From sequence record NC_073056.1: DNA of 46,017 nucleotides; one strand, given 5' to 3'. The notes below the pieces were generated by a model that was not told the DNA's origin, did no database searches, and saw nothing but the letters and a program-made list of their open reading frames with translations. Positions within the stretch are counted from its first letter, which is position 1, and every line of letters starts with the position of its first letter. Of this stretch, positions 1,367 to 32,730 are shown in pieces. The position numbers and the translations under genes were made by a program. Origin of the DNA: Escherichia phage rolling.

Positions 1367-1708
1367 TTATAGAATAAATTTTCGGGACCAGATCGCCTTA
1401 AATTCTGGCGGTGGGGTGTCGTCCAGCATGTGGCGCATGAACAACCGGCCCGTCGGGAATACTTCCAATTGCTTGGCGGTCGTGTCCCAGCATTCGCGCT
1501 GCCGGTTGGTCAGATACGCTATCTTGAAGCCTTGCTCTTCATACATGCGCAGCAGCGGCAGCATATCCATGTTCAGATCTTCGCGGACGTGCGCTTTGTG
1601 CCACTTTGCCCAAAAGGTTGATTTCGTTTTTATCCCCGGCACCAGGTCGGCACGCGCATCGCTTGAGCCGTTAATAACGCCATCCAAATCGCAAATCAGT
1701 AATTTCAT
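1367..1708 (-). CDS. HAD-like hydrolase motif protein (113 aa; LICDLDGV)
   Basis: ORF track; N-terminal DxDGV resembles HAD motif I; short for a full HAD fold; ATGA overlap with upstream gene. Confidence 0.6.
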   Translation of the reverse strand: MKLLICDLDGVINGSSDARADLVPGIKTKSTFWAKWHKAHVREDLNMDMLPLLRMYEEQGFKIAYLTNRQRECWDTTAKQLEVFPTGRLFMRHMLDDTPPPEFKAIWSRKFIL

Positions 1709-1929
1709 TTTAAACTCTCAATAAGGGTGTAACGGGCGCTTCGCGCAGTAAAGGAGTTGCACACGAAATGGCAACGCTGAGTCATGACAAGCCAACCGGT
1801 GAGGTCAAGGCCCAGGATGTATTCGGGGCGAGACGCGCGCACCACACGATTGCGTCGCTGGTCAATACCGTAGTCTTTTTGCATTTGGTCTACTACCGCT
1901 GGGTCGCGGTCAACGATTAAGATATTCAA
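1705..1929 (-). CDS. Hypothetical protein (74 aa)
   Basis: ORF track; non-ATG start preceded by AAGGAG-like RBS; translationally coupled to next gene. Confidence 0.5.
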   Translation of the reverse strand: MNILIVDRDPAVVDQMQKDYGIDQRRNRVVRASRPEYILGLDLTGWLVMTQRCHFVCNSFTARSARYTLIESLK

Positions 1930-2395
1930 GGAGTTCTCCTTCGCTCATTATTTCAATTTGTGCGCTGCTGGTGGGCGGCGCTTCGTCAAATATTATCAAT
2001 TGCTGGCACTTATTATTGCTCGGCCCAACTTCGCCGGTCACAGCATGGATGAATCGCACACGCCAGTCCAGAAGAATTATCATATTGGCAGTCTTCCGGG
2101 CCAGCTTCGCCCACTTCGTCGACGTGTCCTGATTCAGTAGCATGACAGTACGGCGACCGTGCGCAGCGCACTCGACCCACGGCAGCGGATCGGAGTACGG
2201 CGGATTGCACCACTTCCACCCTTTCAACTCTGACCAGTCCGCCTCAAGCGCGCTATGCTCTGCCGTGAAGTAACGCGGCAGCAGGTGATTGGCGTCGCTT
2301 GCCGCCATATCGTAACGGAATCGGTACTTGCGGCGCAGCGGTTTAAATAAAGCTGGCGGCGTGCGCCAGCTATCCTTTTGCTCATTCTTCGTCAT
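1910..2395 (-). CDS. DNA N6-adenine methyltransferase, phage Dam family
   Basis: N-terminal WRTPPALF...FRYDMAAS and catalytic NPPY (WCNPPYS) motifs; start taken at internal ATG (M14 of track ORF 1910..2434). Confidence 0.8.
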   Translation of the reverse strand: MTKNEQKDSWRTPPALFKPLRRKYRFRYDMAASDANHLLPRYFTAEHSALEADWSELKGWKWCNPPYSDPLPWVECAAHGRRTVMLLNQDTSTKWAKLARKTANMIILLDWRVRFIHAVTGEVGPSNNKCQQLIIFDEAPPTSSAQIEIMSEGELLEYLNR

Positions 2396-2834
2396 GGTCG
2401 GGGGATATCGCGTAAAGGGCAATTTTCTTATCACTGTTTAATATGCGTAGTATGCGCTTTGACACCTCGGCGCTAAGCGCATACCGGTGTAATTCTTCGC
2501 GGCCCAGCCACCCTACCGGAACCAGATCTTTCCGGTCGATCTTAGACTGGCGACCTTTGGGGCGCACGTACTCCTCGGCCCGTTTGCAATGCTCACGCAG
2601 CCCGTCGGCAGTGATGCGGTTTAGTGCAACGCTGGTGGTGTATCCGGTGCGCTGCATAATCCCCATCAATTCGAATAGCAGTTCGAAGCGATCCTCTAAC
2701 TCATGGCGCACTTTCTTCTCGCCTTCATATAGCGCCTGGTTGGTGTCTGCCAGCGCGTTCGCGCGTTCGACCTGTTCGCGGGCTTCGAGGCATTGCGCGG
2801 CCCAGTAATTTTTCTCTTCTTGTAAAATTTTCAT
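2382..2834 (-). CDS. Hypothetical protein (150 aa, coiled-coil-like)
   Basis: ORF track 2382..2876; start moved to internal ATG (M15) with GGAG RBS. Confidence 0.65.
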   Translation of the reverse strand: MKILQEEKNYWAAQCLEAREQVERANALADTNQALYEGEKKVRHELEDRFELLFELMGIMQRTGYTTSVALNRITADGLREHCKRAEEYVRPKGRQSKIDRKDLVPVGWLGREELHRYALSAEVSKRILRILNSDKKIALYAISPDHDEE

Positions 2835-2887
2835 CGTGTTGTCTCCAGGTATTAAAAAGGGCGTCCAACCGGACACCCTTAAGATAA

Positions 2888-2914
2888 TGCAACCAATCTA
2901 ATTACGCAACCAAT
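2888..2914 (-). promoter_or_regulatory. Direct pair of GCAACCAAT motifs upstream of gene 2382..2834
   Basis: TGCAACCAAT 2888-2897 and CGCAACCAAT 2905-2914; a GC hairpin (~2856-2877) follows in the 5' leader. Confidence 0.45.
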
Positions 2915-3238
2915 TTATTCATAAAAATTCGGGTCGCGCGCTACATCTACCAGATAAAGGTTGCTCATTCGGTTGCCGTAGTGCCCTGGCGTGCGCTGGC
3001 GACACACAACTGCGAAGCCTGGAGGGATTGTATTGCCGGTTTCGATAATCCACGCCACGCGCGCGCCAGACAGCTTCTTGCCGTTGCATTCGATACGCGT
3101 ACCGCCATCGGCAGTGTTAAGGTTGCCAATCTTGCTGCCGGTGGACTTAAGGCGAATAACGCCGGTCTTGCTGTCGTAGGAGAATAACTGGTTAGTCATT
3201 GCGACCGAGAAGTCGATGGCTTCGAATGTAGTATTCAT
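2915..3238 (-). CDS. HNH-endonuclease-like protein, apparently degenerate (107 aa)
   Basis: SYDSKTG...NGKK...ARVAW...GNTIPPG pattern resembles HNH_3 homing endonucleases, but the expected His (HRxxW) and DH residues are replaced. Confidence 0.5.
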   Translation of the reverse strand: MNTTFEAIDFSVAMTNQLFSYDSKTGVIRLKSTGSKIGNLNTADGGTRIECNGKKLSGARVAWIIETGNTIPPGFAVVCRQRTPGHYGNRMSNLYLVDVARDPNFYE

Positions 3239-3930
3239 TTTAAATTTCCCTCATTGACTGCTATTGCGAAGCCGCGCGGAGTGAGCGACCGTATTAATTT
3301 GGTGCGGGCAGATTTGCCACCGAGGCGACTATACTGCTTCGAGTACCCTTTTTCAACGAATACCGGCTTTTTCTCCGGCATACGAAAGCCGTTGCCGGTC
3401 CATAAACAGGTCAGCTTTGGATATGAATCGCGGTCGTTGATGTATTCTGGGAACAACGGGTGCGCGTCATCCTCCGGCAGATAGCCGCCATACTCCCACG
3501 GGTCAAACGAGTGGTCTGGCTTGCGCCACTGGGTGGACAGCACACTGCGCGGATTCTCAATCATATATGGCACTTCAAAGAAGTCACCCAGGTAAGCGGC
3601 AATCTTCGCGGTGCGCACGGCCTTAAGCTGAAAGGCGGGGTCTTTCGCACGCTTACGCGGGAACGCGGGCGCACCGCTCACCGCCAGATCCGTGCACGGT
3701 GGGAAAGCGTAGATGACGTCTGGCGTACCAAAATCGCCATTCATAGCGCGGTCTACGAAGTCCAGATCGATAAACTCATTGCGATAGCGGATGCCACGCC
3801 CATAGATACGGTAGTCGAGGTAAGACCCGTGATCGGCTTCGGAGTAGTTGAAACAGTAGCATTTATGCCCCATCTCGGCAGCACGCTCTACCATCAAGCC
3901 GCTGCCGTCAAATAATGACCAGATAATCAC
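3235..3930 (-). CDS. Compact DNA (cytosine-5)-methyltransferase-like protein (231 aa)
   Basis: Motif I-like SLFDGSG, motif IV-like FPPCTDLAVSG, motif VI-like MIENPRSV in canonical order; shorter than typical C5-MTases. Confidence 0.55.
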   Translation of the reverse strand: MIIWSLFDGSGLMVERAAEMGHKCYCFNYSEADHGSYLDYRIYGRGIRYRNEFIDLDFVDRAMNGDFGTPDVIYAFPPCTDLAVSGAPAFPRKRAKDPAFQLKAVRTAKIAAYLGDFFEVPYMIENPRSVLSTQWRKPDHSFDPWEYGGYLPEDDAHPLFPEYINDRDSYPKLTCLWTGNGFRMPEKKPVFVEKGYSKQYSRLGGKSARTKLIRSLTPRGFAIAVNEGNLK

Positions 3931-5351
3931 TTGCGCACCTTCTTAGCTTTCATGTATTCCATCAAATCGTCCTGAATATCGCGCTTACCGTCGCGGCGGT
4001 CTGCCACCAGTTCGTCCAGTGTCCCGCGTGCCTGGATAATGTAGACGAATACCGGTCGAGGGTGTCCGGCTTGCATCTGGCGTACCGGCCCGATACGCTC
4101 CACGATCTGCGCAAAGTGCTCATAGTTCCACGTATCCGAGAAGATAGCCAGGTGATGACCGCCGTCCTGCAAGTTGAGGCCGTGACCCGCCGATGCTGGG
4201 TGTGCGAACATGATGGGGATCTCGCCCCTGTTCCACGCTTCCACATCCTTATTGCCCTGCTTGCCTTTACCCATCGCAACGCCGTGGGGAAACTTCTTCT
4301 TCAGACGTGCCAGGTCGTGCTTGTACTGATACGCAACGAGCAACGGCGCGCCGTTCAACTCTTCTACGATACTTTCCAGCGCGTCCAGCTTGGCGTCGTG
4401 AATCTTCACCCACTCGTCGGTCCGTTCGCCGTCCTCGTCTACCTTATACACGGCACCGGAAGCAAGCTGGAGGCACTTGATGGTCTTCGCCGCAGCGTTC
4501 GCCGCTTCCACTGTTCCGCTTTCCAGTTCGGCAAATAGCTCGCTCTCAAACTGGTCGTAAATCTTGCGGGCTTTCTTCGGCAGGTCCACAACAACCGGCG
4601 TGTAGATGGGCTTGTCACATCCGAAGTATTCAGCCGCGTCCACGGTAAGGGATACATCGGACAGGCGTTGTTGGATCTCCTTCTCGGAGTTCTTGAGCGG
4701 GGCGTGCTGCATAGTGAAGCTGCCGGGTTTAACAGGCTTGCTAATAAACCAGCGATCGGTGAATGCTTTATAACTACTACCGAGGCGTTCTCCACCGTCG
4801 ACAAACCACGTCTGCCCCCATAAGTCCTTCAGTCCGTTTGGTGCAGGTGTGCCGGTAAGGTTAATCCAACGATTGACGTGCTTATGTGCGATCGCCGCCA
4901 GTGCGCGTGCGCGCTTACTACCCTGCTTACTTCGGTAGCCTTTCAGCTTAGTGGATTCATCGGCAACAACGACCGTAAAGGGCCACTCGTCGCCGTAATA
5001 CTCGACAAGCCACTCAACCACATCATAGTTAACGCAAACCACGTTAGCGTTGCTCTCAAGCGCTGCAATGCGGTCTTTCTCTGGTCCGGTGCCGTCTACT
5101 ACCAGCAGGGCTGGGAATCTCCATTTTTCTTGTTCCGGGGGCCACGTACCTGACGCAACGCGCAGCGGGGCTAGCACCAGTACGCGGTCTTCCTGGTTGG
5201 ATAGGATGCCAGTCTGGAACATTTTGTTGAGCGCCCACATAGTCGCGCCGGTTTTACCAGACCCCATTGTCGCCCAAATATTACAACGTTCGTGCTTGAG
5301 AATAAACGCGGTTATCAATTTCTGATATTCGCGACGTCGGAAGCGTGCCAT
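3927..5351 (-). CDS. Superfamily 2 (SNF2/DEAD-like) helicase
   Basis: Walker A TMGSGKTG, DExx box VVADEST; start at internal ATG M31 of track ORF 3927..5441. Confidence 0.8.
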   Translation of the reverse strand: MARFRRREYQKLITAFILKHERCNIWATMGSGKTGATMWALNKMFQTGILSNQEDRVLVLAPLRVASGTWPPEQEKWRFPALLVVDGTGPEKDRIAALESNANVVCVNYDVVEWLVEYYGDEWPFTVVVADESTKLKGYRSKQGSKRARALAAIAHKHVNRWINLTGTPAPNGLKDLWGQTWFVDGGERLGSSYKAFTDRWFISKPVKPGSFTMQHAPLKNSEKEIQQRLSDVSLTVDAAEYFGCDKPIYTPVVVDLPKKARKIYDQFESELFAELESGTVEAANAAAKTIKCLQLASGAVYKVDEDGERTDEWVKIHDAKLDALESIVEELNGAPLLVAYQYKHDLARLKKKFPHGVAMGKGKQGNKDVEAWNRGEIPIMFAHPASAGHGLNLQDGGHHLAIFSDTWNYEHFAQIVERIGPVRQMQAGHPRPVFVYIIQARGTLDELVADRRDGKRDIQDDLMEYMKAKKVRK

Positions 5352-5355
5352 ATCT

Positions 5356-5580
5356 TTATTCCGCCTTTTTCCAGACTTCGGTTTCACTGTTCCAATTCCT
5401 CTTTGTGGCGTCGTAGTTGGTGTCGTGTCCGATGTGCACACCGGTCGAGCGGAAGCTTTTAAACTTCTGCCAGCACACCGTCAACGGCAGCGGGTCATTC
5501 ATGCCTGCGATAAACCACACGCGATCACCTGGTTTGCACTCGCCCAGCTTGGTGAGTCGGTAATGTTCTTTCATCGTCAT
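5356..5580 (-). CDS. Hypothetical small protein (about 74 aa)
   Basis: C-terminal part of track ORF 5356..5787 from internal ATG (M70); upstream part overlaps a better Zn-ribbon ORF in another frame; weak RBS. Confidence 0.4.
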   Translation of the reverse strand: MTMKEHYRLTKLGECKPGDRVWFIAGMNDPLPLTVCWQKFKSFRSTGVHIGHDTNYDATKRNWNSETEVWKKAE

Positions 5581-5617: not shown

Positions 5618-5791
5618 TTATTCTTGTTCTGCGCGATAGCGGCGCTGCCTTTCACGCTCTTTCTTATTGCGGCACGATTTGCACTCGGCCCGATGACCGT
5701 CTGGACTGCGCGCAGTCTTGCCGGTGTATTTGTGGAACTGGGATAGCGGCTTGATGCATCCGCAATTACTGCAACGTTTTTCTTCAATCAT
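5618..5791 (-). CDS. Zinc-ribbon protein (57 aa; CSNCGC...CKSC)
   Basis: Four Cys in two CxxC pairs; internal ATG (M21) with GAGGA RBS; GCAACCAAT motif at 5848-5856 upstream. Confidence 0.5.
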   Translation of the reverse strand: MIEEKRCSNCGCIKPLSQFHKYTGKTARSPDGHRAECKSCRNKKERERQRRYRAEQE

Positions 5792-5831
5792 TTCTAAAAT
5801 CCTCGATAGTGCTAACCGGCACACTATACCG

Positions 5832-6110
5832 CTACGCGACCAATTCAGCAACCAATAAATTGCAGTCGGCTATGTTGTCTATAACGCGAACGTCAGCACC
5901 GCGGCGGGCCATCCGTTCATGTTCTCGCACCTGGTGCGGCTTCGGTTTTCCGCCGGGGCGCTTCACTTCGACGAATACTACTCTGCCGTTTATGATAATA
6001 ATCAGGTCGGGCGCACCTGCGCGCCCCTCCCATGCCAGTTTGCGGCAGAATCCGCCAACGGCTTTTACCAGCTTCATCAGGTGACTTTGTATCTTGCCTT
6101 CTGGAGTCAT
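5832..6110 (-). CDS. VRR-NUC domain nuclease
   Basis: PD-(D/E)xK-like GAPDLIIIINGRVVFVEVKRPGGKP signature; ATG start; ATGA overlap with next gene. Confidence 0.75.
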   Translation of the reverse strand: MTPEGKIQSHLMKLVKAVGGFCRKLAWEGRAGAPDLIIIINGRVVFVEVKRPGGKPKPHQVREHERMARRGADVRVIDNIADCNLLVAELVA

Positions 6111-15230: not shown

Positions 15231-15339
15231 TTTGTGCGCGTATTGGTTGCCGATATGGGAATTCCCATATCGCTAAAAGATTAAATTTTGCGCGCATTGG
15301 TTGCCATTTTGGGTGTTTTTAGCTGGTCGCATTGGTTGC
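15222..15339 (+). repeat. Tandem duplication of primase 3' end with three ATTGGTTGCC motifs and a 22-bp perfect palindrome
   Basis: AAAGATTAA..GCGCG.ATTGGTTGCC at 15222-15251 and 15276-15305 (~27/30 identical); palindrome CGATATGGGAATTCCCATATCG at 15251-15272; third ATTGGTTGC at 15331-15339. Confidence 0.7.
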
Positions 15340-15371
15340 CGTGTAGTGTAAATATAGTGAATAGTTATGCA

Positions 15372-15547
15372 GTTTTATTGCATAAAGTAAGCGGGACAAA
15401 AAGCGGGACAAACATGGGGCGGGACAAAGCGGGACAGCACCCCCTGTCCCGCCCGGATGGCGCGGCTTGCGGAGGAGCGGGACAGGCGGGACAAACCTCA
15501 GTCTTTCAGACTAGACGGGGTCAGTTGGCCCCCCTCGTCTGAGACTG
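15372..15547 (+). repeat. Iteron array 1: GCGGGACA x7 with TGCATAA motifs and conserved ~50-bp imperfect hairpin
   Basis: GCGGGACA at 15391, 15403, 15419, 15429, 15477, 15487 plus inverted TGTCCCGC at 15445; hairpin 15499-15547; AT-rich stretch just upstream. Confidence 0.85.
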
Positions 15548-15701
15548 CATAAAATCCGGGATTGCATAACGCACGGCAGCATGATGTGAATTGCGGTCGT
15601 CGATGAACTAGGCAACCAATGCGTGTTGAATAATGGAGAGTGAAAAATGCAGTTTGCAGTTGCAGCAGATAGCGATCAACTTTTTCATACGCATGATTAA
15701 T

Positions 15702-15742
15702 ATTGGTTGCATTCAGCCTGGCACCCTGCTAGATTGGTTGCA
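15702..15742 (+). promoter_or_regulatory. Promoter-like element with two ATTGGTTGCA motifs upstream of gene 15764
   Basis: ATTGGTTGC 15702-15710 and ATTGGTTGCA 15733-15742; TTGCAT-N17-TAGATT reads as a sigma70-like promoter. Confidence 0.45.
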
Positions 15743-32336: not shown

Positions 32337-32661
32337 GCGGGACGGATCGGGACGTCCCGATTTGTCCCGTTTTGTCCCGCCCCCAGTAAAACTGCATACC
32401 TACCCACTTTCATTGCATAAACTCAAAGCGGGACAAGCGGGACGCCCCGATCCGTCCCGCCCATTAAATGTGCATACCTATTCAGATCTCGTGCATAAAA
32501 CAAACGGGACAAAAAGCGGGACAAACATGGGGCGGGACAAAGCGGGACAGCACCCCGTCCCCGTCAGTGCTGCCGCGGGTTTTAGCCGATCGGGACAGGC
32601 GGGACAAAGCCCAGTCTTTCAGACTAGACGGGGGTCAGTTGGCCCCCCTCGTCTGAGACTG
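32337..32661 (+). repeat. Iteron array 2: GCGGGACA-type repeats (>=14 copies) with TGCATAA motifs and the same conserved hairpin
   Basis: Copies at 32337, 32347, 32428, 32437, 32516, 32532, 32542, 32599 and inverted copies; palindrome CGGGACGTCCCG 32348-32359; ~52-bp and ~65-bp blocks near-identical to array 1; hairpin 32612-32661. Confidence 0.85.
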
Positions 32662-32730
32662 AATAAGGTTTGTTTGAAATTCGCTGATACAATGTCAATC
32701 GGCAACTGCATAAAAAAAGGGGACTGCATA

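What the first reader, a model, noticed from the sequence alone, without database searches (positions are those of the whole stretch)
2915..3238. HNH-like protein with substituted catalytic residues between the two methyltransferase genes
The protein follows the N-terminal pattern of HNH_3 homing endonucleases, but the conserved His of the HRxxW motif is Ala (ARVAW) and the downstream DH-containing motif is replaced (VCRQRTPG). It may be an inactivated endonuclease kept as a DNA-binding factor.
Basis: partly seen in the sequence, partly recalled or inferred. Interest (0 to 1): 0.45.

Follow-up and report, generated by a model that had tools for sequence, protein, structure and literature searches.

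The report
Nuclease-dead HNH-like core phage protein
This small gene of a Dhillonvirus coliphage descends from an I-HmuI/HNH_3-type homing endonuclease, has lost its catalytic Asp-His pair, and is still kept under strong selection in every genome of the genus, so it is probably a non-cutting DNA-binding or adaptor protein rather than the "HNH endonuclease" it is usually annotated as.

Summary
ORF 2915..3238 (-) encodes 107 aa containing GARVAW and VVCRQRTPGHYGNR. It is a real gene: dN/dS is about 0.05, and it occurs in about 155 of 156 Dhillonvirus genomes, always just downstream of the SNF2 helicase gene.

It is homologous to HNH_3/I-HmuI endonucleases:
- phrog_99, E = 8e-16
- hhalign against canonical HNH_3, 98% probability, E = 3e-13

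It does not match Pfam HNH_3.

Three independent aligners all place hydrophobic or Cys residues where I-HmuI has Asp74-His75. None of the 13 clade members has Asp or His there. The "HR" His is Ala. The C-terminal helix and the AP2 domain of canonical relatives are missing.

The structural Asn (N93) is kept, and D102 aligns with the metal-binding Asn. The loop between the two beta strands is longer, and its RTPGHYGNR stretch, including the clade-specific invariant His86, is the most conserved segment.

Divergent orthologs carry extra helix-turn-helix modules. My reading is a domesticated, nuclease-dead homing-endonuclease module that binds DNA. The DNA binding is inferred, not shown.

A side finding: the motif GCAACCAA(T) is about tenfold over-represented, and a pair always sits right after this gene.

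The parts
2915..3238 (-). Coding sequence of the 107-aa degenerate HNH_3/I-HmuI-like protein (the stop TAA is at 2915-2917)
3246..3251 (-). Shine-Dalgarno-like GAGGGA, 7 nt upstream of the ATG
   Evidence: Read directly from the sequence.
3235..3238 (-). ATGA overlap: the start codon of this gene overlaps the stop codon of the upstream Dcm-like methyltransferase gene, which suggests translational coupling
   Evidence: Sequence and ORF coordinates. The same overlap is annotated in KarlBarth.
3050..3067 (-). Codons for G58-A59-R60-V61-A62-W63. This is the counterpart of the canonical 'AHRLAW' motif, with the invariant His replaced by Ala
   Evidence: Alignments. H61 is invariant in 59 canonical proteins. 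The position is A in 11 of 13 clade members, P in the eiAU-type ortholog and L in P0008.
2969..3010 (-). Codons for V77-R90 (VVCRQRTPGHYGNR). This covers the end of strand beta1, where the canonical D-H should be, plus the loop, which is lengthened by 2-4 residues. It includes the clade-specific invariant His86 and the retained N89-R90
   Evidence: hhalign maps V78/C79 to canonical D/H. Other aligners shift the register by 1-2 residues but never find D or H. R82-R90 is identical in all Dhillonvirus-like members down to 55% identity, and H86 and R90 are invariant in all 13.
2957..2962 (-). Codons for N93-L94, the retained 'NL' (the structural Asn of the HNH motif, equal to I-HmuI N87)
   Evidence: Invariant in both the degenerate and the canonical sets. 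Mapped to I-HmuI through.
2933..2935 (-). Codon for D102, which aligns with the metal-binding Asn of the canonical helix (I-HmuI N96). [quoted passage not shown]
   Evidence: MAFFT mapping. The AF2 model shows no helix after residue 98. The role of the Asn at the helix N-terminus is described in PMC3384342.
2850..2880 (-). Hairpin with a 10-bp stem (2857-2880) followed by a U-rich tail. It is a likely intrinsic terminator closing the helicase / Dcm-like / HNH-like transcription unit
   Evidence: RNA fold. A terminator is annotated at the same place in phage vB_EcoS_WF5505. The simple consensus scan did not list it.
2889..2913 (+). Direct pair of the over-represented motif GCAACCAA(T), at 2889-2896 and 2906-2913. 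The nearer copy ends 1 nt from the stop codon. Whether it belongs functionally to this gene is unknown
   Evidence: 22 copies in the window against 2.0 expected. A pair is kept immediately after this gene in almost every relative, including those at 55-62% identity; HK578, L011, keeps one copy.

Best explanation
The gene encodes a domesticated, catalytically dead derivative of an I-HmuI/HNH_3-type homing endonuclease.

What it keeps:
- the N-terminal antiparallel beta-sheet, which in I-HmuI reads the DNA major groove
- the beta hairpin of the His-Me finger

What it has lost:
- the Asp-His catalytic pair
- the family-typical 'HR' His
- most of the finger's alpha-helix
- the C-terminal AP2 DNA-binding domain found in its closest active relatives

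The lengthened loop between the two strands (RTPGHYGNR, with an invariant new His86) has become the most conserved part of the protein. This suggests a new binding surface.

The gene is fixed as a core gene of the leftward early/replication operon, immediately after the SNF2-family helicase gene, in Dhillonvirus, Eiauvirus and a few metagenomic relatives.

Most likely it binds DNA without cutting it and acts as a regulatory or replication accessory factor.

Shown here: the homology, the fold, the loss of catalytic residues, purifying selection, fixation and synteny.
Inferred: absence of nuclease activity, DNA binding, and the biological role.
For: Gene reality and selection:
- Median pairwise dN/dS is 0.051 at dS 0.63. 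This is similar to the neighbouring Dcm-like gene (0.030), helicase (0.027) and Dam (0.087).

Fixation:
- tblastn finds the protein at >=80% identity in 155 phage records.
- 156 records carry the Dhillonvirus-type helicase at >=80% identity.

Homology:
- phrog_99, E=7.8e-16.
- hhalign against 59 canonical HNH_3 proteins: 98%, E=2.7e-13.
- The canonical-only HMM hits only this ORF in the window.
- The canonical profile matches I-HmuI 1u3e at E=1.4e-5, with DH on D74-H75.

Fold:
- AF2 pLDDT 91.2, pTM 0.83.
- BFVD: TM 0.91 to an independently predicted ortholog and 0.81 to the eiAU protein, then phage HNH/homing endonucleases at TM 0.6-0.7.

Catalytic loss:
- The D-H positions are V/V/C in Dhillonvirus and I-T-L, V-T-C, V-R-C or I-R-P in the others. 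No D, E or H occurs there in any of 13 members.
- There is no Pfam HNH_3 hit at E<=10, whereas relatives score E=1e-13 to 1e-34.

Literature:
- H75 is the general base of I-HmuI. The small beta-sheet makes sequence-specific major-groove contacts. SMAD MH1 is a His-Me finger that lost catalysis but kept this DNA-binding surface (PMC3384342; PMC5714182).

Support for DNA binding:
- The eiAU-type ortholog carries an N-terminal extension resembling the C-terminal HTH domain of I-HmuI (Pfam PF22083 E=3.2e-4; 1u3e residues 118-173 is its best PDB match).
- P0008 carries a C-terminal XRE-like HTH (weak).
- In tandem HNH_3 proteins, a degenerate N-terminal copy next to an intact copy is recurrent.

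Independence from the methyltransferases:
- The Dcm-like gene is absent in Shigella phage EP23 (L013) and in L022.
- There is no methyltransferase at all near P0008 (L019).
- The gene always follows the SNF2 helicase.
Against: - No experiment exists. Absence of nuclease activity is inferred from sequence only.
- The protein has also lost the AP2 domain and the helix that contact DNA in active relatives. Residual DNA affinity could therefore be weak or absent.
- An Asp/Asn (D102) still aligns with the metal-binding Asn, and the invariant His86 has no assigned role.
- The HTH matches in divergent orthologs are below curated thresholds (PF22083 20.7 bits against 27; PDB E=0.068; XRE-like E about 1).
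- The AF2 model depended on an alignment dominated by canonical HNH_3 sequences. The first, shallow alignment gave pLDDT 43.
- Related phages with a 65%-identical helicase (for example Bas74) lack the gene, so it is not generally required by this replication module.
Confidence: 0.6

Rival explanations
1. The protein-interaction adaptor hypothesis. The dead nuclease scaffold and its hyper-conserved loop bind a protein rather than DNA. Candidates are the SNF2 helicase encoded just upstream, another replication protein, or a host defence or repair factor (an anti-defence decoy).
For: - The gene is constantly adjacent to the SNF2 helicase gene across genera.
- The DNA-contacting helix and the AP2 domain have been lost.
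- The most conserved segment is a remodelled loop that is variable in canonical nucleases.
- Small genus-restricted Dhillonvirus proteins do engage host defence proteins, for example Ksap1, two genes away (PMC11564622).
Against: - Divergent orthologs have gained HTH-type modules, which are DNA-binding modules.
- The scaffold that is kept is the one that contacts DNA in I-HmuI.
Confidence: 0.22
2. It is still an active nuclease or nickase that uses a non-canonical site. The suggested site is His86 as a relocated general base, D102/N104 as the metal ligand, and N93 as the structural Asn.
For: - His86 is invariant in all 13 clade members, is absent from canonical relatives, and lies in the loop next to the finger.
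- D102 aligns with I-HmuI N96.
- N93 is retained.
- His-Me fingers tolerate active-site variation, for example Tyr in R.PacI.
Against: - The position of the general base is C, L or P, and the neighbouring metal-ligand Asp is hydrophobic. Neither is conserved within the clade.
- His86 falls in an insertion with no canonical counterpart.
- The alpha-helix carrying the metal ligand is cut to about 5 residues.
- In the published classification, groups lacking the His or Tyr are taken as inactive.
- I could not measure distances in the model because no coordinates were available.
Confidence: 0.08
3. It is an accessory subunit or controller of the adjacent DNA methyltransferase(s). Examples would be a target-recognition or regulatory partner of the unusually short (231 aa) Dcm-like enzyme to which it is translationally coupled.
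For: - The ATGA overlap with the Dcm-like gene.
- Methyltransferase genes lie next to it in both Dhillonvirus and Eiauvirus.
- The Dcm-like protein has no Pfam hit and is short.
Against: - The gene is intact and conserved where the Dcm-like gene is missing (EP23/L013 at 93% identity; L022).
- It is also conserved where no methyltransferase is nearby (L019).
- The order relative to the methyltransferases differs between genera.
Confidence: 0.05
4. It is a decaying remnant of a homing endonuclease gene with no function of its own.
For: - Catalytic residues and C-terminal domains are lost.
- One genome (SSL-2009a) shows a frameshift.
Against: - dN/dS is 0.05 over dS up to about 1.2.
- It is intact in about 155 of 156 genomes.
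- It is conserved at 38-62% identity in other genera at the same locus.
- It has its own ribosome-binding site and start coupling.
Confidence: 0.02

Closest known systems
I-HmuI (PDB 1U3E) and Pfam HNH_3 (PF13392) homing endonucleases, including HNH_3-AP2 proteins of phages and bacteria (His-Me finger group 2 of Jablonska et al. 2017)
   Same: - Homologous over about 93 residues.
   Different: - Lacks D74/H75 equivalents, the 'HR' His, most of the finger helix, the downstream N-x-x-N motif, and any AP2/NUMOD/HTH domain.
- The loop is 2-4 residues longer, with a new invariant His.
- Not sporadic or mobile: it is fixed at one locus in a whole genus.
- Fails the Pfam HNH_3 model.
MH1 domain of SMAD proteins ('a degraded homing endonuclease', Grishin 2001; His-Me finger group 16)
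   Same: - Same evolutionary logic: a His-Me finger nuclease that lost its catalytic residues while keeping the beta-sheet DNA-binding surface shared with I-HmuI and I-PpoI.
- Exapted as a non-cutting factor.
   Different: - MH1 is eukaryotic, Zn-stabilised and experimentally shown to bind DNA.
- Here DNA binding is untested and no Zn ligands are conserved.
Degenerate N-terminal copies in tandem HNH_3 proteins (for example P0014, P0016, P0018, P0019, P0028)
   Same: - The same module with the same kinds of substitutions (A/S/V for the HR His; LF, VV, TY, SF for DH), with NL kept.
- These are among the closest sequence relatives outside the clade.
   Different: - Those copies are fused to an intact catalytic copy and presumably serve it.
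- The Dhillonvirus protein stands alone, and the phage encodes no intact HNH_3 module.
Terminase-associated HNH endonucleases of cos phages (HK97 gp74 type, GVE2 HNHE)
   Same: Small phage-encoded HNH-family proteins that are core rather than mobile genes.
   Different: - Those belong to a different HNH subfamily with an intact H-N-H and a Zn site.
- They lie next to the terminase genes and nick DNA.
- This gene is in the replication operon, far from the terminase, and lacks the catalytic residues.

Membership tests
HNH_3 / I-HmuI-type His-Me finger nucleases | Significant profile similarity to family members | tested here: met
   phrog_99 E=7.8e-16. hhalign against 59 Pfam-HNH_3 proteins: 98%, E=2.7e-13. 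Canonical-only HMM E=9e-8.
HNH_3 / I-HmuI-type His-Me finger nucleases | Passes the curated Pfam PF13392 model | tested here: not met
   No Pfam family at E<=10. Relatives score 33-117 bits against a cut-off of 24.8.
HNH_3 / I-HmuI-type His-Me finger nucleases | General-base His at the end of strand beta1 (I-HmuI H75), preceded by Asp (D74) | tested here: not met
   Aligned residues are V78-C79, V77-V78 or A76-V77, depending on the aligner. In 13 clade members the His position is C, L or P.
HNH_3 / I-HmuI-type His-Me finger nucleases | Structural Asn of the H-N-H motif (I-HmuI N87, 'NL') | tested here: met
   N93-L94 is invariant in both the clade and the canonical set.
HNH_3 / I-HmuI-type His-Me finger nucleases | Metal-binding Asn at the N-terminus of the finger's alpha-helix (I-HmuI N96) | tested here: inconclusive
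   D102 (N in some members) aligns with it. However, the protein ends at residue 107 and the model shows no helix after residue 98.
HNH_3 / I-HmuI-type His-Me finger nucleases | Fold: small antiparallel beta-sheet plus beta-beta-alpha finger | tested here: met
   [not shown]
HNH_3 / I-HmuI-type His-Me finger nucleases | DNA nicking or cleavage activity | not testable with these tools
   Needs a biochemical assay.
Free-standing homing endonuclease genes (mobile) | Sporadic presence or absence among close relatives, with insertion at varying sites | tested here: not met
   Present at >=80% identity in 155 records against 156 with the Dhillonvirus helicase. Same locus in 17 of 17 loci examined. 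dN/dS 0.05.
Degraded His-Me finger DNA-binding domains (SMAD MH1 type), as an analogy rather than homology | Loss of the catalytic His with retention of the beta-sheet DNA-binding scaffold | tested here: met
   The concept comes from PMC3384342 and PMC5714182.
Degraded His-Me finger DNA-binding domains (SMAD MH1 type), as an analogy rather than homology | Demonstrated DNA binding | not testable with these tools
   There are only indirect hints: HTH fusions in orthologs.
Terminase-associated packaging HNH endonucleases | Gene adjacent to the terminase / cos site, with an intact H-N-H and Zn site | tested here: not met
   The gene lies in the replication operon about 25 kb from the terminase genes in KarlBarth. 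The catalytic residues are absent.
Ksap1 (KpAvs2 trigger of Dhillonvirus) | 74-aa protein between the methyltransferase and phosphatase genes | tested here: not met
   Ksap1 corresponds to window 1705..1929 (-), 74 aa with L47 and T50, and not to this 107-aa ORF.

The most novel reading that the evidence does not exclude
The protein is a sequence-specific, non-cutting DNA-binding regulator that evolved from a homing endonuclease. Under this reading it recognises the GCAACCAAT motif.

Facts about the motif:
- It is about tenfold over-represented and almost exclusively intergenic in Dhillonvirus and Eiauvirus, the two genera that share this gene.
- It is clustered next to the primase-helicase gene.
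- Some copies lie inside the spacers of several promoter-like sites.
- A pair of copies follows this gene's own stop codon in nearly every relative examined.

This would be a phage counterpart of the SMAD-MH1 / plant-AP2 exaptations. It would control early-to-late transcription or origin function.
Probability: 0.12. Interest if true: 0.7.

Novelty: new variant of a known kind. Interest (0 to 1): 0.4.

Why it matters
- Roughly a hundred GenBank records call this gene an 'HNH' or 'homing' endonuclease. The evidence says it is neither mobile nor likely to cut DNA, so those annotations mislead.
- It is a clean prokaryotic-virus example of a selfish homing-endonuclease module being domesticated after losing catalysis. 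It is fixed genus-wide, strongly constrained, and has a remodelled loop as the new conserved surface. This route is otherwise known mainly from eukaryotic SMAD MH1 and AP2 domains.
- Dhillonviruses are part of the BASEL collection and are widely used in defence-system studies. They have no annotated regulator, so a candidate DNA-binding core protein and a candidate regulatory motif are directly testable.

Tried and rejected
- Pfam and NCBIfam scans of the protein gave nothing.
- PDB sequence searches with the clade profiles gave only chance hits.
- The word-indexed protein search with the single sequence or the clade profile found only close relatives.
- The exhaustive HMM search found just 17 hits in 1.8 billion representatives. 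The clade is therefore narrow.
- The first AF2 run, on 5 near-identical sequences, was unusable at pLDDT 43.
- The afdb50 fold library was unavailable.
- Model coordinates are not exposed, so I could not measure His86-D102-N93 distances.
- The I-HmuI structure paper (PMID 15313606) is not held.
- Literature searches for Dhillonvirus + HNH and for inactive or degenerate HNH found nothing on this gene.
- The Retron-Eco7 paper reports an unnamed Dhillonvirus 'phage98' trigger of unknown function. I could not identify which gene it is, because no supplements are held.
- Ksap1 was considered and excluded as being this gene.
- The methyltransferase-partner idea was tested against gene content and weakened.
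- The link between the motif and this protein could not be separated from a link to the primase-helicase. Dhillonvirus and eiAU are simply closer to each other (45% identity) than to Bas74 (30-35%).
- A literature search for the motif found nothing relevant.

Full report
**What the window is.**
- A 2.2-kb stretch around the finding matches 157 phage records at 88-93% nucleotide identity. Nearly all are Escherichia/Shigella phages of the genus Dhillonvirus (HK578-like siphoviruses).
- The local gene order on the minus strand is: DNA polymerase I, small ORFs, VRR-NUC-like, SNF2-family helicase (3927..5441), Dcm-like methyltransferase (3235..3930), the target ORF (2915..3238), a 150-aa protein (2382..2834), Dam (1910..2434), a 74-aa ORF, and a HAD/PNK-like phosphatase.

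**Observation check.**
- It has a GAGGGA ribosome-binding site, and its ATG overlaps the TGA of the Dcm-like gene (ATGA).
- A 10-bp-stem hairpin with a U-rich tail follows at 2850-2880. It is annotated as a terminator in phage vB_EcoS_WF5505.

**It is a real, selected gene.**
- Across 17 orthologs (the window, KarlBarth and 15 IMG/VR Dhillonvirus contigs), median pairwise dN/dS is 0.051 at median dS 0.63.
- The comparison values are Dcm-like 0.030, helicase 0.027 and Dam 0.087.
- tblastn finds the protein at >=80% identity in 155 phage records. The Dhillonvirus-type helicase is found at >=80% identity in 156 records.
- This is a core gene, not a sporadic homing-endonuclease gene. One genome (SSL-2009a) appears frameshifted.

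**Homology to HNH_3/I-HmuI.**
- Pfam and NCBIfam give no hit. PHROGs places residues 9-99 in phrog_99, 'HNH endonuclease', at E=7.8e-16.
- An exhaustive HMM search of 1.84 billion representatives returns only 17 proteins. They fall into three groups:
  - a small clade with the same degenerate motifs (P0006, the eiAU-type P0007, P0008)
  - canonical proteins that pass Pfam HNH_3, often with a C-terminal AP2 domain (P0009, P0011, P0012, P0017)
  - tandem proteins with one degenerate and one intact copy
- A second indexed search enlarged the clade to 13 members down to 36% identity.
- Profile-profile comparison of this clade with 59 canonical HNH_3 proteins gives 98% probability, E=2.7e-13, over 93 columns.
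- An HMM built only from canonical proteins hits this ORF (E=9e-8) and nothing else in the window.
- The canonical-rich profile in turn matches I-HmuI (1u3e) at E=1.4e-5, with its DH on D74-H75.

**Structure.**
- With a 72-sequence alignment, AlphaFold2 gives pLDDT 91.2 and pTM 0.83. The shallow alignment had failed.
- In BFVD, the model superposes on an independently predicted Dhillonvirus ortholog (TM 0.91) and on the eiAU protein (0.81). After those come dozens of phage HNH/homing endonucleases at TM 0.6-0.7.
- The model has the N-terminal beta-sheet and the two finger strands (75-79 and 94-98) but no helix after residue 98.

**Status of the catalytic positions.**
- In I-HmuI, H75 is the general base and an Asn at the N-terminus of the finger's helix binds the metal. 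The small beta-sheet reads the major groove (PMC3384342).
- Three aligners place the canonical D-H on V78-C79 (hhalign, MAFFT A2), V77-V78 (MAFFT A4) or A76-V77 (HMMER). None gives an acidic residue or His.
- Across the 13 clade members this stretch reads VVC, ITL, ICL, VTC, VRC or IRP. The catalytic position is therefore not even conserved.
- The invariant His of the canonical 'AHRLAW' motif is A59 (P or L in two members).
- Retained residues are R60, A62-W63, P72, N89-R90 and the structural N93-L94.
- D102 (N in some members) aligns with the metal-binding N96 of I-HmuI. It lies five residues from the C-terminus, so the helix is truncated. The AP2 domain of the closest active relatives is absent.
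- The loop between the strands is 2-4 residues longer than in canonical proteins. Its R82-R90 stretch (RTPGHYGNR) is identical in all Dhillonvirus-like members down to 55% identity. H86 is invariant in all 13 and falls in the insertion.
- I therefore consider canonical His-Me catalysis lost. This follows the rule used in the superfamily classification, where groups lacking the His or Tyr are taken as inactive (PMC5714182).
- A relocated site using H86/D102 is not excluded, because I could not inspect the coordinates.

**Genomic context across relatives.** The gene always follows the SNF2 helicase gene.
- Directly after it in Shigella phage EP23 (L013) and in L022.
- After the Dcm-like gene in most Dhillonviruses, and in L020 and L023.
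- After an 87-nt gap in Edwardsiella phage eiAU, where the methyltransferases come after it.
- After a DUF7167 gene in L019, where no methyltransferase is present.
- The methyltransferases are therefore accessory neighbours rather than obligate partners.
- Guernseyvirinae-like phages with a 65%-identical helicase (for example Bas74) lack the gene.

**Hints about function.**
- The eiAU-type ortholog has an N-terminal extension whose best PDB match is the C-terminal HTH domain of I-HmuI (residues 118-173; VSQVLQGHKKSHRGYVFR against VTDVLKGHRIHHKGYTFR; E=0.068). It also gives a sub-threshold Pfam I-HmuI_NUMOD-like hit at E=3.2e-4.
- P0008 has a C-terminal XRE-like HTH signature (weak).
- In tandem HNH_3 proteins, the N-terminal copy is often degenerate in the same ways while the second copy is intact.
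- The SMAD MH1 domain is an established precedent for a degraded His-Me finger that kept the I-HmuI/I-PpoI-type DNA-binding surface.
- Together these points make a non-cutting DNA-binding role the best-supported mechanism, but it is inferred. A protein-adaptor role is the main rival.

**Side finding.**
- The 8-mer GCAACCAA (usually GCAACCAAT) occurs 22 times in the window against 2.0 +/- 1.3 expected.
- In KarlBarth it occurs 19 times, and 15 of those copies lie in the 5.5% of the genome that is intergenic.
- In the distantly related eiAU-183 it occurs 23 times against 1.6 expected, including a cluster just after the primase-helicase gene. The window has an analogous cluster at 15243-15734.
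- It is not enriched in Bas74 (3 against 1.4) and is only mildly enriched in T1 (8 against 1.9).
- A direct pair sits immediately after the stop codon of the HNH-like gene in almost every relative, including those at 55-62% identity; HK578 (L011) keeps a single copy.
- Some copies lie in the spacer of good sigma-70-like promoters.
- The binder is unknown. The primase-helicase is an equally good candidate, and the phylogenetic pattern does not discriminate between the two.

**Verdict.**
- The thing is a domesticated, almost certainly nuclease-dead HNH_3/I-HmuI module, fixed as a core gene. It is a new variant of a known kind and of moderate interest.
- Its role is open, and the experiments that would settle it are straightforward.

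Noticed in passing
window, 22 sites including 1329/1341, 2889/2906, 9655/9671, 15243-15734 (6 copies), 18709/18732, 26741/26755; also L024 (KarlBarth) and L025 (eiAU-183): The 8-mer GCAACCAA (mostly GCAACCAAT) is about tenfold over-represented.
- Window: 22 copies against 2.0 expected.
- eiAU-183: 23 against 1.6 expected.
- KarlBarth: 15 of 19 copies lie in the 5.5% of the genome that is intergenic.
- It often occurs in pairs 12-23 bp apart, clusters next to the primase-helicase gene, and sometimes lies in promoter spacers.
- It is not enriched in Bas74 and only weakly enriched in T1.
- It is probably a phage-specific operator or iteron whose binder is unknown.
   Followed up: partly
window 1705..1929 (-): This 74-aa ORF (phrog_10685) lies between the Dam and HAD/PNK-like phosphatase genes. 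By position, length and the presence of L47 and T50, it matches Ksap1, the Dhillonvirus protein that directly activates the Klebsiella Avs2 defence protein (PMC11564622).
   Followed up: partly
window 3235..3930 (-): The 'Dcm-like' methyltransferase is only 231 aa. It has no Pfam or NCBIfam hit (only phrog_757), although it shows FxGxG, PC and ENP-like motifs. It is absent from Shigella phage EP23 (L013) and from the metagenomic relative L022, so it is an accessory insertion between the helicase and the HNH-like gene.
   Followed up: partly
window 2382..2876 (-), probable true start at 2834: The next gene downstream is labelled 'DNA ligase' by PHROG phrog_10530 (E=1e-80), yet it is only about 150 aa with no Pfam hit. 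One GenBank record notes 'possible DNA ligase but no evidence'. It is missing in HK578 (L011) and was not detected in L017. The first in-frame start listed (GTG at 2876) lies inside the terminator hairpin. The PHROG alignment starts at Met15.
   Followed up: no
window 5618..5851 (-): This 77-aa Cys-rich ORF (CSNCGC...CKSCRNKK) hits only the N-terminal Zn-ribbon part of Lar-like, endonuclease VII and HNH PHROG families (E=1e-17 to 1e-6). It may be a second truncated nuclease-derived module in the same operon.
   Followed up: no
L018 4860-5315 / P0007 (Edwardsiella phage eiAU, eiDWF); L019 3112-3594 / P0008: Divergent orthologs carry extra modules.
- The eiAU type has an N-terminal extension resembling the C-terminal HTH domain of I-HmuI. 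This is permuted relative to I-HmuI.
- P0008 has a C-terminal XRE-like HTH.
- Both matches are below curated thresholds.
   Followed up: partly
P0014, P0016, P0018, P0019, P0028, P0033, P0040 and others: Many 250-290-aa proteins consist of two HNH_3 modules in tandem. The N-terminal copy has lost the D-H pair or the Asp alone (LF, VV, TY, SF, TH, KH), and the C-terminal copy is intact. This is a recurrent 'pseudo-dimer' architecture that I have not seen described.
   Followed up: partly
window 15357-15552 and 32470-32666: A direct repeat of about 200 nt (82-97% identical) lies in two regions 17 kb apart. It includes GGGGTCAGTTGGCCCC hairpins and GGGGCGGGACAAAGCGGGACA repeats, with further inverted copies at 32337-32460. 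Its function is unknown.
   Followed up: no
PMC12640716 (Retron-Eco7 paper): Escape mutants of a Dhillonvirus ('phage98') map to an unnamed gene of unknown function that triggers Retron-Eco7. I could not find out which gene it is, so it remains open whether it is the ORF studied here.
   Followed up: partly
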